A DNA stretch of 7,873 nucleotides, taken from IMG/VR virus record IMGVR_UViG_2896595138_000010, positions 1 through 7,873 of that record. One strand, given 5' to 3'. This stretch comes from a virus (lineage: Duplodnaviria; Heunggongvirae; Uroviricota; Caudoviricetes). The position numbers are program-made. Below, piece after piece: positions 5,101-7,873 of this stretch. The first letter of the stretch is position 1. Every line of letters begins with the position of its first letter.

Positions 5101-7873
5101 TCAATCAGCGCGAAAAGGTTGCCAACCATCCTCAACCAGTACCGCAACCAGAAAGTAGCCTAGACCGTGCGCGAGCCATGGAAATAGCTTTGAACGTGGC
5201 GGATCGACTGGTGAATATGTTCCCGAATCTGTCCTCAGAATCAAAGCAGGCAGCAGTAGCTGGAGTGTTCAACCCGATTGTTGGTCGCGATGTTGTACCT
5301 CTGCCAGCTATCTCAGAGCACTACTACTCTGCTACGGAAGTCGGCCAGCGCTACGGTATTTCAGCCAACAAGGTAGGACGCATAGCCAACACCTACATGC
5401 TCAAAACAGAAAAGTACGGGAAGTGGTTCATCGACAAATCGGCGCACAATGACAAGCAGGTTGAAACATTTCGGTACAACGAGGCTGGAGTGCACAAAAT
5501 AGAGGAACTCATCGAAGGAGAGCGAAAGGCTGCATGATTTTGACAAGATAGTTTTCCCCAAATGTGGGGAAAAGCCCGAATGGCGCGGCTTACAGCAAGA
5601 TAAGGCCTACATAATTTGACAACACCGCATTAACGGGGCTATATTCCGCTTCATGGTGCTCAAAACACCTTTGCGATAGCGGAAACCGCCCCGTCAGTTA
5701 TGCGGATTTTTTTATGTCTACGACATTGAGAATTCAATGGTCGGGCGTGCGGCTAATAAAACACCCGCAAGGGAAATATGCCCGCCGTCTATCGCCGGTT
5801 TTGAGCGCCCGACCACCCTCTCAAAAGGGGTGAATTCAAAATATGCGATAGGACATAAAACCATGGCTACTCAAATTTCTGTTGAATCCCTTTCCCCAAT
5901 TACCTATAACCACATCCCCGTCATCACTACCGAACTACTGGCACGACTTTACGGCACTGAGACCAACAACATTAAAGTGAACTATACGCGCAATGCCGGG
6001 CGTTTTGTTTGTGGTAAGCACTACTTTAAACTGGAGGGTGGTGAATTGCGGGAATTTAAGAACAAGGTTACTCACAGTAACTTAGTTGCACCGCGAGCAA
6101 AGCACCTCATCCTCTGGACAGAACGAGGCGCAGCCCGCCACGCAAAAATGCTCGAAACCGATCAGGCGTGGGAAGTGTTCGAAAAACTGGAAGACTGCTA
6201 TTTCAGCCCGGGCAAAGCGGAACAGCACCCGCAGATCCAGCAGCAATTCACAGACGAAGAAATCATCCTCCTTTGCTATATGCAGGTACAGATGGAGAAT
6301 GCGCAGGACATCTGCAAACGTCTGTACCCGATATTGAAGGAACTGAACTCATCATACACGAGCAAGCTGTATAACATCGCGTTTGAAACTTTTTACACGG
6401 TGACGAAAAACAGAGATGTACTGCTAAGGGAGGCGACACGACTTGACCAAGCAAGCGCCCTTTTCGAACGGGAAAAACCAATGCTGAAAAGCCTTCGGGC
6501 GAGACAATTCGAATTTTAATCATCAAAGGAGCTTCGGCTCCTTTTTTGTTGGAGAAAATAAACCAATACTCGCTCCCTTGCGAGTAATTGCGGAGACTTT
6601 GCGATGTACTTGACACTTCAGGAGTGGAACGCACGCCAGCGACGCCCAAGGAGCCTTGAAACAGTTCGTCGATGGGTACGCGAGTGCAGGATATTCCCTC
6701 CTCCGGTTAAGGATGGAAGAGAGTATCTGTTCCACGAATCAGCGGTAAAGGTTGACTTAAATCGACCAGTAACAGGTAGCCTTTTGAAGAGGATCAGAAA
6801 TGGGAAGAAGGCGAAGTCATGAGCGCCGGGATTTACCCCCTAACCTTTATATAAGAAACAATGGATATTACTGCTACAGGGACCCAAGGACGGGTAAAGA
6901 GTTCGGATTAGGCCGAGACAGGAGGATAGCAATCACTGAAGCAATACAGGCCAACATTGAGTTGCTATCAGACAGCGGGCGCGAGTCACTGATAGACAGG
7001 ATTAAAGGCGCTGACTCAATCACCCTTCATGCGTGGCTTGACCGATATGAAACAATCCTCAGCGAGAGGGGCATCAGACCGAAAACTCTACTCGACTACG
7101 CCAGCAAAATCAGGGCAATTCGAAGAAAATTGCCGGACAAACCGCTCACTGACATATCAACGAAAGAGGTGGCAGCAATGCTAAATACCTACGTAGCAGA
7201 AGGTAAAGCGGCTTCCGCAAAATTAATCAGGTCAACCCTTGTTGACGTTTTTCGTGAAGCAATAGCCGAGGGGCATGTGGCTACGAATCCGGTAACAGCA
7301 ACCCGCACAGCAAAGTCAGAAGTAAGGCGCTCAAGGCTGACAGCTAATGAGTATGTCGAGATTTACCATGCAGCCGAACCTCTCCCTATCTGGCTGAGGC
7401 TGGCAATGGATTTGGCCGTCATTACAGGGCAGAGAGTGGGCGATTTATGCAGAATGAAGTGGTCAGACATAAACGACAACCATCTTCACATTGAGCAGGG
7501 TAAAACAGGGGCTAAGCTCGCCATTCCGCTGACGCTAACGATTGACGCGCTCAATATCTCACTGGTTGATACACTACAGAAATGCAGGGAGGCCAGCAGC
7601 AGTGAAACTATAATCGCATCAAAGCATCACGATCCGCTTTCCCCGAAAACAGTATCAAAGTATTTTACAAAGGCGAGAAATGCCTCCGGACTCTCATTTG
7701 ATGGAGACCCGCCAACATTCCATGAACTGCGTAGCCTGTCAGCGAGGCTATACCGGAACCAGATTGGCGATAAATTTGCTCAACGTCTTCTCGGGCATAA
7801 ATCAGATTCAATGGCGGCGCGGTATAGGGACAGCCGAGGGAGAGAATGGGACAAAATTGAAATCAACAAATGA

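What the first reader, a model, noticed from the sequence alone, without database searches (positions are those of the whole stretch)
6520..6620. Terminator followed by a cII-type (pI-like) promoter motif directly upstream of xis-int
A strong intrinsic terminator (UUCG-loop hairpin plus T6, 6525-6547) closes the accessory gene array. Then TTGC-N6-TTGC (6578-6591) sits 13 bp before the xis ATG, inside a 7-bp-stem hairpin (TACTCGC-TCCCTT-GCGAGTA, 6567-6586). In lambda, CII-activated pI starts within the beginning of xis, so Int is made without Xis during lysogeny establishment. The same layout appears to be conserved here. Read-through expression of xis-int from upstream would then require antitermination at 6525-6547.
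Basis: partly seen in the sequence, partly recalled or inferred. Interest (0 to 1): 0.35.

Follow-up and report, generated by a model that had tools for sequence, protein, structure and literature searches.

The report
Lambda pI promoter behind a terminator
This is the well-known CII-activated integrase promoter (pI) of phage lambda, almost base-for-base identical, preceded by a transcription terminator as in lambda and phage 434; it is ordinary and correctly read.

Summary
These are an 8-bp UUCG-loop hairpin plus T6 (6525-6547), a 7-bp hairpin (6567-6586), and TTGC-GAGTAA-TTGC (6578-6591) 12 nt before the xis ATG (6604). From 6577 onward the window is identical to lambda pI/xis except for one base (T->A at 6583, in the -35 hexamer). 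The CII site lies at the same distance from the xis ATG as in lambda. This is therefore lambda's pI by homology, not merely a pI-like motif.

The terminator-then-pI layout is also known. The phage 434 record annotates a terminator (PMID 6305007) abutting pI, and lambda has an equivalent hairpin (published prediction 't5'). The window's terminator is not homologous to either. It belongs to a third upstream module, the C-terminal part of an Ant-family gene plus the terminator. This module was seen in 27 sequences including the window, and 53 E. coli genomes carry the full junction. It joins the pI module exactly at the CII site.

The 7-bp hairpin straddles that joint, shows no compensatory change, and is probably incidental. 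A close relative prophage encodes CII, CIII and N.

Verdict: interpretation supported, already known, low interest.

The parts
4661..4705 (+). Tandem hairpins homologous to lambda's predicted t3/t4 terminators (lambda about 29,300-29,360). This is the last lambda-like sequence before the Ant cassettes.
   Evidence: t3/t4 sequences from PMC4195576 Table 4. Homology to lambda ends right after the second hairpin.
5616..5645 (+). Sigma-70-like promoter TTGACA-18-TATATT (11 of 12) upstream of the Ant-family gene. It may make the gene an autonomous cassette.
   Evidence: the only such site in 3800-7873. The relative L124 has TTGACA-18-CATACT at the same position. Activity was not tested.
5739..5822 (+). 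sRNA-Xcc1 (RF02221) match in the leader of the Ant-family gene.
   Evidence: 78 bits, gathering score 53. Also found in L124.
5737..6519 (+). Ant-family gene (ORF6N + P22AR_C domains). The true start is probably ATG 5863. From 6240 on it belongs to the conserved upstream module.
   Evidence: E. coli annotations call it Ant, AntA/AntB, ORF6N or P22AR_C.
6525..6547 (+). Intrinsic terminator: 8-bp stem, UUCG loop, T6. It is the functional analogue of the terminator that abuts pI in lambda and 434.
   Evidence: Invariant in all 27 window-type sequences (8 haplotypes).
6548..6577 (+). 30-nt spacer that ends at the mosaic joint. This is the most variable part of the junction.
6567..6586 (.). 7-bp inverted repeat TACTCGC-N6-GCGAGTA straddling the joint. 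The left arm lies in the upstream module, and the right arm is the first CII half-site plus spacer.
   Evidence: Left-arm variants are TACTCGT and TGCTCGC (G.U only); there is no compensatory change.
6578..6591 (+). CII binding site of pI, with direct repeats TTGC (6578-6581) and TTGC (6588-6591).
   Evidence: The 434 annotation calls it 'transcription factor CII'.
6582..6587 (+). pI -35 hexamer GAGTAA (lambda and 434 have GTGTAA; T->A at 6583).
   Evidence: GAGTAA is present in 27 of 27 window-type sequences. Lambda paQ has a GAG... spacer.
6605..6610 (+). Inferred pI -10 hexamer TGTACT, 17 bp from the -35. It overlaps the xis start codon. The transcript start is expected at about 6615-6618, inside xis codon 4-5.
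   Evidence: Sequence identical to lambda and 434. The 434 promoter feature ends 6 nt into xis, i.e. it covers the first 6 bases of the gene. 'PI located in the xis gene' (PMC2951348). The exact start (lambda 29065) is from my memory.
6587..6606 (+). Weak hairpin AUUGCGGA-GAC-UUUGCGAU pairing the xis Shine-Dalgarno (GGAG, 6592-6595) with the AU of the start codon. It is present only in read-through (pL-type) transcripts.
   Evidence: (-5.1 kcal/mol). The sequence is shared with lambda. Function was not tested.
6604..6822 (+). xis (excisionase), 72 aa, 71/72 identical to lambda Xis.
6800..7873 (+). int (tyrosine integrase), 357 aa. The arm-binding domain is identical to lambda's, and the protein is 75% identical overall.

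Best explanation
Window 6577-6620 is the CII-dependent integrase promoter pI of the lambda-type xis-int module, preceded by an intrinsic terminator supplied by a different, non-lambda upstream module.

Mechanism (by homology with lambda; not tested here): after infection, a CII-family activator binds the two TTGC repeats that flank the poor -35 hexamer (GAGTAA). It recruits RNA polymerase to the -10 element TGTACT, which overlaps the xis ATG. Transcription then starts about 12-14 nt inside xis, so the message lacks the xis start codon and yields Int only, which favours integration.

Transcripts from upstream come either from pL or from the sigma-70-like promoter at 5616-5645 of the Ant cassette. 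They meet the terminator at 6525-6547. Only N-modified, antiterminated pL transcription gets through, and that gives xis plus int for excision. Unmodified transcription is stopped, so Xis is not made by accident in a lysogen.

The 7-bp hairpin at 6567-6586 is most likely a by-product of the module joint.
For: Shown here:
- Homology to lambda, 434, HK022 and HK97 begins at window 6577.
- The pI core is identical except for one base.
- The spacing from the CII site to the xis ATG is the same as in lambda.
- The curated 434 annotation has terminator, pI, CII site and -35 at the homologous bases.
- Lambda's own hairpin abutting pI is a published terminator prediction (t5, PMC4195576).
- Across 135 phage and prophage sequences only three unrelated upstream modules occur, and each ends in a hairpin plus T-run. 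The counts are 83 lambda-type, 25 434-type and 27 window-type.
- The window's terminator is invariant over 8 haplotypes, while the adjacent spacer and coding sequence vary.
- Its stability is comparable with the lambda and 434 hairpins.
- The closest annotated relative (identical over 6325-6606) encodes a CII-family regulator, CIII, an N antiterminator peptide, CI and Cro, all in lambda order.
- That relative has a TTGC-N6-TTGT site 10 nt into cII on the antisense strand, the same offset as lambda pRE.
- The T->A change gives a spacer starting GAG, as in lambda's functional paQ site TTGCGAGCACTTGC.

From the literature: CII binds TTGCN6TTGC flanking the -35 of pRE, pI and paQ (PMC4651098). pI lies in xis and gives Int without Xis, while pL plus N gives both (PMC2951348).
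Against: - No transcription data exist for this sequence.
- The window contains no cII or N gene, and its left half is IS debris. This prophage may therefore be defective, and pI may be unused.
- The relative's CII is only 40% identical to lambda CII, and its pRE-like site ends in TTGT rather than TTGC.
- The -35 hexamer is one match poorer than lambda's (GAGTAA against GTGTAA).
- The terminator lies 30 nt further from pI than in lambda or 434, and its G-C core is only 5 bp. Calling it 'strong' is unproven.
- The bare TTGC-N6-TTGC motif is expected 0.49 times per window by chance.
Confidence: 0.9

Rival explanations
1. The terminator is first of all the end of an autonomous, moron-like Ant cassette: promoter 5616-5645, sRNA-Xcc1-like leader, Ant-family gene, terminator. 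It is not punctuation of the pL operon, and insulation of xis is a side benefit. This is compatible with the main explanation and differs only in emphasis.
For: A near-consensus promoter (11 of 12) is the only such site in 3800-7873, and it is kept in position in L124. The sRNA-Xcc1 match lies in the leader. The terminator starts 6 nt after the stop codon. The cassette replaces lambda's orf-55 plus t5 segment between the t3/t4 homologue and pI.
Against: The conserved module starts only at 6240, inside the gene. The promoter, leader and N-terminal domain are therefore exchanged independently of the terminator. Lambda and 434, which have no Ant gene, also place a terminator here. Promoter activity is untested.
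Confidence: 0.4
2. The pI copy in this window is a relic. The prophage is degraded (IS insertions, frameshifted Ant paralogue) and lacks a cognate CII, or the -35 change cripples the promoter, so the motif is homologous to pI but no longer works.
For: IS3-family and IS2-like transposase fragments fill 1-3840, and one Ant paralogue is frameshifted. No complete E. coli genome holds the whole window. The T->A lies in the -35 hexamer.
Against: xis and int are intact. GAGTAA is fixed in all 27 window-type sequences, including complete phage genomes of 44-48 kb, and it also occurs once on a lambda-type background (L106). Lambda paQ has the same GAG spacer start. The relative L124 has CII, CIII and N.
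Confidence: 0.15
3. The 7-bp inverted repeat at 6567-6586 is a functional element. It could be an RNA hairpin in pL read-through transcripts that, together with the 6587-6606 hairpin, tunes xis translation. It could instead be a DNA operator for a dimeric protein that competes with CII at pI.
For: A perfect 7-bp stem of -11.5 kcal/mol overlaps the CII half-site. The A at 6583 needed for perfect pairing is fully linked to this upstream module (27 of 27). Both left-arm variants keep pairing through G.U on the + strand RNA.
Against: There are no compensatory (two-sided) changes. Two transitions being G.U-compatible has about a 25% chance. Both strands fold about equally well. As DNA, 16 of the 27 sequences have an imperfect palindrome. 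Lambda and 434 lack the repeat. GAGTAA also occurs without the left arm (L106). No Rfam family matches. Perfect 7-bp hairpins are common in this window.
Confidence: 0.1

Closest known systems
Bacteriophage lambda pI promoter (CII-activated int promoter; lambda 29091-29104 CII site, xis ATG 29078)
   Same: Sequence is identical from the base before the first TTGC through the start of xis, apart from one base. The TTGC-N6-TTGC repeats, the 12-nt gap to the xis ATG, the -10 overlapping the ATG and the downstream xis-int overlap are all the same.
   Different: The -35 hexamer is GAGTAA instead of GTGTAA. The upstream flank is unrelated. Int diverges after the arm-binding domain (75% identity), which implies a different attachment site (the relative L124 sits next to yfaA/gyrA).
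Terminator upstream of pI in lambda and phage 434 (annotated in OL657226 with PMID 6305007; lambda hairpin predicted as 't5' in PMC4195576)
   Same: An intrinsic terminator on the xis-int strand closes the preceding accessory gene just before the CII site. Hairpin stability is similar.
   Different: There is no sequence homology. In lambda and 434 the T-run touches or overlaps the first TTGC, while here the T-run ends 30 nt upstream and a second, non-terminator hairpin fills the gap.
Lambda pRE and paQ (the other CII-dependent promoters)
   Same: They share the TTGC-N6-TTGC architecture around a weak -35. The paQ spacer begins GAG like the window's (PMC4651098).
   Different: They have different spacer and -10 sequences and different targets (cI establishment; anti-Q RNA).
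Lambdoid 'moron' cassettes (promoter-gene-terminator units inserted between conserved modules; my own knowledge of the HK97/HK022 comparative genomics literature)
   Same: The Ant-family gene has a candidate promoter of its own and a terminator right after its stop codon. It sits between two lambda-like segments.
   Different: The conserved unit starts mid-gene at 6240. Independent expression has not been shown.

Membership tests
Lambda pI (CII-dependent integrase promoter) | Two TTGC direct repeats separated by 6 bp, straddling the -35 hexamer | tested here: met
   TTGC-GAGTAA-TTGC at 6578-6591. The same layout is annotated in 434.
Lambda pI (CII-dependent integrase promoter) | Sequence homology to lambda pI across the -35, spacer, -10 and start region | tested here: met
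   All aligned bases from 6577 to 6640 are identical to lambda except 6583. Megablast homology to lambda, 434, HK022 and HK97 starts at 6577.
Lambda pI (CII-dependent integrase promoter) | Position: the promoter overlaps the 5' end of xis, so the transcript lacks the xis start codon and encodes Int only | tested here: met
   There is a 12-nt gap between the CII site and the xis ATG in both the window and lambda. The inferred -10 element TGTACT covers bases 2-7 of xis. The literature statement is in PMC2951348. The start site itself is inferred, not mapped.
Lambda pI (CII-dependent integrase promoter) | A CII-family activator encoded by the same phage | tested here: inconclusive
   This is not in the window. 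The closest annotated relative with an identical junction encodes a CII-family protein (40% identical to lambda CII) plus CIII. It also has a pRE-like TTGC-N6-TTGT at lambda's offset within cII.
Lambda pI (CII-dependent integrase promoter) | CII-dependent transcription initiation | not testable with these tools
   This needs 5'-end mapping or a reporter assay with and without CII.
Intrinsic (Rho-independent) terminator | G+C-rich stem-loop followed directly by a U-run on the transcribed strand | tested here: met
   8-bp stem (4 G-C), UUCG loop, T6; -12.5 kcal/mol.
Intrinsic (Rho-independent) terminator | Placement just after a stop codon, and conservation among relatives | tested here: met
   It starts 6 nt after the TAA at 6517-6519. 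It is invariant in 27 sequences and 8 haplotypes, even where the adjacent coding sequence differs (L158).
Intrinsic (Rho-independent) terminator | Termination activity, and its suppression by N | not testable with these tools
   This needs a terminator-probe reporter with and without N/nutL.
Homologue of the lambda/434 terminator that abuts pI | Sequence homology to the lambda (GCCGCCTGATGGCGGTTTTTT) or 434 (GCCGCATCAATGCGGCTTTT) hairpin | tested here: not met
   There is no alignment upstream of 6577. The window's hairpin resembles lambda's predicted t2 (30669-30695) over about 30 nt only, with unrelated flanks. It is therefore an analogue by position and presumed function, not a member by descent.

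The most novel reading that the evidence does not exclude
Three unrelated upstream modules (lambda-type, 434-type, Ant-type) all join the pI-xis module at the same base, and each supplies its own intrinsic terminator. This could mean that insulating xis from upstream transcription is a selected requirement, and that the edge of the CII site is a preferred recombination joint. In the Ant-type module, the extra hairpin overlapping the CII half-site, with its fully linked T->A change, could be an added control of pI or of xis translation.
Probability: 0.12. Interest if true: 0.3.

Novelty: already known. Interest (0 to 1): 0.08.

Why it matters
It matters little beyond annotation. The result confirms that this prophage carries the textbook lambda integration switch: Int alone from pI under CII, and Xis plus Int only from antiterminated pL transcripts. 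It also shows that a third, unrelated accessory module keeps the rule of a terminator in front of pI that was already described for lambda and 434. That is a tidy example of functional conservation across mosaic joints in lambdoid phages. It opens no new question.

Tried and rejected
- The bare-motif statistics for TTGC-N6-TTGC are not significant in the window, in lambda or in L124, so the motif alone was rejected as evidence.
- I looked for the primary paper behind the 434 terminator annotation (PMID 6305007). It is not held, and searches for its title and for the 1980 sequence papers found nothing useful. The content of those papers is therefore cited only through the GenBank annotation and my memory.
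- The scan of one genome per species for the pI core gave 21 hits. Twenty are lambda DNA in unrelated assemblies and one is a genuine Escherichia (434-type). No new upstream module types appeared.
- A second viral-contig scan that excluded T at position -3 found only the window type, plus one lambda-type variant.
- A covariation test of the three hairpins found 0 compensatory pairs among 5 haplotypes, which gives no support for a conserved RNA structure beyond sequence conservation.
- A permissive Rfam scan of 6400-6750 found nothing.
- The antisense ORFs 6523-6735 and 6263-6649 have no Pfam match and were rejected as genes.
- The resemblance of the window's terminator to lambda t2 covers only about 30 nt and was not pursued.
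- The minus-strand reading of hairpin 6567-6586 as a terminator was rejected. Its T-tail is poor, and nothing is known to be transcribed antisense into it.

Full report
**Observation**

- The 5737-6519 ORF ends with TAA at 6517-6519.
- Six bases later comes the hairpin AAAGGAGC-TTCG-GCTCCTTT (6525-6544), whose T-run extends to 6547.
- TACTCGC-TCCCTT-GCGAGTA lies at 6567-6586.
- TTGC-GAGTAA-TTGC lies at 6578-6591.
- The xis ATG is at 6604. xis (6604-6822) overlaps int (6800-7873).

The terminator scan reports the 6525 hairpin on the + strand. It reports the 6567-6586 repeat only as a poor minus-strand candidate. RNA folding of 6510-6610 gives three hairpins with a z-score of -3.6. TTGC-N6-TTGC occurs once in the window. 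As a bare motif it is expected 0.49 times by chance, so on its own it proves nothing.

**Identity of the promoter**

Megablast against phage records shows that homology to lambda, 434, HK022, HK97 and many Stx phages begins at query base 178, which is window 6577. That is one base before the first TTGC. In a three-way alignment the window is identical to lambda from there into xis, except for T->A at 6583. Upstream of that point the three sequences are unrelated.

In lambda the pI CII site is TTGCGTGTAATTGC at 29091-29104, and the xis ATG is at 29078. That is a 12-nt gap, as in the window.

The curated phage 434 record (OL657226) annotates the homologous bases as 'pI promoter; CII-controlled'. 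It marks the CII binding site, a -35 of GTGTAA and a terminator (PMID 6305007) that overlaps the first two bases of the CII site.

The literature held here says that CII binds TTGCN6TTGC flanking the -35 of pRE, pI and paQ (PMC4651098). It also says that pI lies within xis, so int is transcribed without xis, whereas pL with N antitermination gives both (PMC2951348).

A 17-bp spacer puts the -10 at TGTACT (6605-6610). The start is therefore expected at about 6615-6618. My recollection that lambda pI starts at 29065 corresponds to 6617, but that number comes from memory and not from a tool.

**The single difference**

The T->A at 6583 lies in the -35 hexamer, between the two repeats. Lambda's three CII sites have unrelated spacers: GTGTAA (pI), GTTTGT (pRE) and GAGCAC (paQ). 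The window's GAGTAA starts like paQ.

GAGTAA is present in all 27 window-type sequences, and in 1 of 108 lambda- or 434-type sequences (L106). It is therefore a tolerated, lineage-linked variant.

**The terminator**

Lambda has GCCGCCTGATGGCGG plus T6 (-13.0 kcal/mol) directly against the first TTGC. Phage 434 has GCCGCATCAATGCGGC plus T4 (-10.5) in the same place. The window's hairpin scores -12.5. The lambda hairpin is also a published terminator prediction (t5, PMC4195576 Table 4).

In 119 viral contigs and records that contain the pI core, only three upstream modules occur:
- lambda-type: 83
- 434-type: 25
- window-type: 11

A second scan raised the window-type set to 27 sequences in 8 haplotypes and found no fourth module. 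In all 27 the terminator is invariant. The 30-nt spacer varies, as does the coding sequence in L158.

So the layout of a terminator followed by pI is known for lambda and 434. Here it is reproduced by a non-homologous terminator that sits 30 nt further upstream.

**What the upstream module is**

The 5737-6519 product has ORF6N and P22AR_C domains. E. coli annotations call it Ant, AntA/AntB, ORF6N or P22AR_C. Relatives share sequence with the window only from 6240 onward. The conserved unit is therefore the C-terminal domain plus the terminator, spacer and pI.

Further upstream, 4661-4705 is homologous to lambda's predicted t3/t4 hairpins (lambda about 29,300-29,360), and homology stops just after them. 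The Ant cassettes thus replace lambda's orf-55 plus t5 segment.

A near-consensus promoter at 5616-5645 and an sRNA-Xcc1 match at 5739-5822 precede the Ant gene. Both recur in the relative L124. The terminator may therefore also serve as the end of an autonomous cassette. In that case its insulation of xis would matter in the lysogen.

**Trans-acting partners**

The window has no cII or N. The closest annotated relative is E. coli RMDEC465 (L124), which is identical to the window over 6325-6606. It has CII-family, Cro, CI, N-peptide, CIII and Kil genes in lambda order, upstream of DUF4222, ORF6N, P22AR_C, xis and int.

Its CII is 40% identical to lambda CII, with a conserved C-terminus. A TTGC-N6-TTGT site lies antisense 10 nt into cII, which is the offset of lambda pRE. 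This supports a working CII circuit for phages that carry this junction. It does not show one for the window's own prophage, whose left half is IS debris.

**The 7-bp hairpin**

The hairpin straddles the mosaic joint. Left-arm variants are TACTCGC (11 sequences), TACTCGT (11) and TGCTCGC (5). Both changes keep a G.U pair on the + RNA, but neither is compensatory. The chance of that happening is about one in four. Both strands fold about equally well, and perfect 7-bp hairpins are common in this window. No Rfam family matches. I regard the hairpin as probably incidental.

**Comparison and verdict**

This is lambda pI by descent. The upstream terminator is a positional and presumed functional analogue of the one described for lambda and 434, not a homologue. 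Nothing here is new in kind, and interest is low.

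Noticed in passing
window 5739-5822 (+); L124 18881-18970: An sRNA-Xcc1 (RF02221) match (78 and 64 bits) lies in the leader directly upstream of an ORF6N-domain Ant-family gene. A sigma-70-like promoter sits about 90 nt further upstream (5616-5645). The same sRNA-Xcc1/ORF6N pairing is reported for APSE phages (PMC7313666), which suggests a cis-acting leader rather than a free sRNA.
   Followed up: partly
L125-L145 (genome-contig scan): Twenty of the 21 species-representative genomes containing the pI core are non-enteric. 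They include Shewanella, Pseudomonas, Kitasatospora, Bradyrhizobium and Oceanobacillus. All carry sequence identical to lambda, several on low-coverage contigs of about 48.4-48.5 kb. This is almost certainly lambda DNA contaminating the assemblies.
   Followed up: partly
window 1-3840: The left half of the window is IS debris. It holds an IS3-family orfB on the minus strand (1448-2116) with an ALIL frameshift pseudoknot (2260-2375), and an IS2-like orfA/orfB on the plus strand (2792-3840). These interrupt the Ead/Ea22-DUF551 region (648-1256). No complete E. coli genome holds the whole window, so the source may be a Shigella-like or draft genome.
   Followed up: partly
window 4756-5537: A second Ant-family paralogue is split by a frameshift: the ORF6N N-terminus is at 4756-4950 and the rest at 4977-5537. 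The relative L124 has it intact as a 260-aa gene.
   Followed up: no
window 4650-4705 and 6577: Both ends of the inserted Ant segment coincide with regulatory hairpins. Homology to lambda stops just after the t3/t4-like hairpins and resumes exactly at the CII site. The t4-like hairpin has lost its T-run but keeps its stem (CTCGT/GCGAG against lambda's CTCGC/GCGGG).
   Followed up: partly
window 6517-6550 vs lambda 30669-30695: The window's terminator resembles lambda's predicted t2 terminator between orf61 and ea22. Compare AATCATCA..GGAGC-loop-GCTCCTTTTTT with lambda's AATCATCAGGGAGCTACAGGCTCCTTTTTT. The similarity covers about 30 nt and the flanks are unrelated. It could be a short shared module or convergence.
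   Followed up: partly
window 6587-6606: A weak hairpin (-5.1 kcal/mol) pairs the xis Shine-Dalgarno GGAG with the first two bases of the xis AUG. The sequence is shared with lambda and 434. It would exist only in read-through transcripts, because pI starts downstream of it.
   Followed up: no
window 6578-6613: TTGC/TTGA recurs four times at helical-turn spacing (6578, 6588, 6599, 6610). The 434 record labels the later pairs 'pseudo-CII sites' (TTGY-N7-TTGY and TTGY-N7-TTGR).
   Followed up: no
window 6800-7873: Int is identical to lambda Int through the arm-binding domain (residues 1-55) and then diverges to 75% overall. There is thus a second mosaic joint near 6965, and presumably a different attB. 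The relative L124 is inserted in a DUF1175-family gene beside yfaA/gyrA, not at the lambda attachment site.
   Followed up: partly
window 5552-5573: A 9-bp hairpin TTTTCCCC-ACAT/AAATGT-GGGGAAAA lies right after the stop of the 4977-5537 ORF. It is conserved in L124 (18696-18717). It has A/T-runs on both sides but no clean U-tail on the + strand. It may be a weak or bidirectional terminator between the two Ant paralogues.
   Followed up: no
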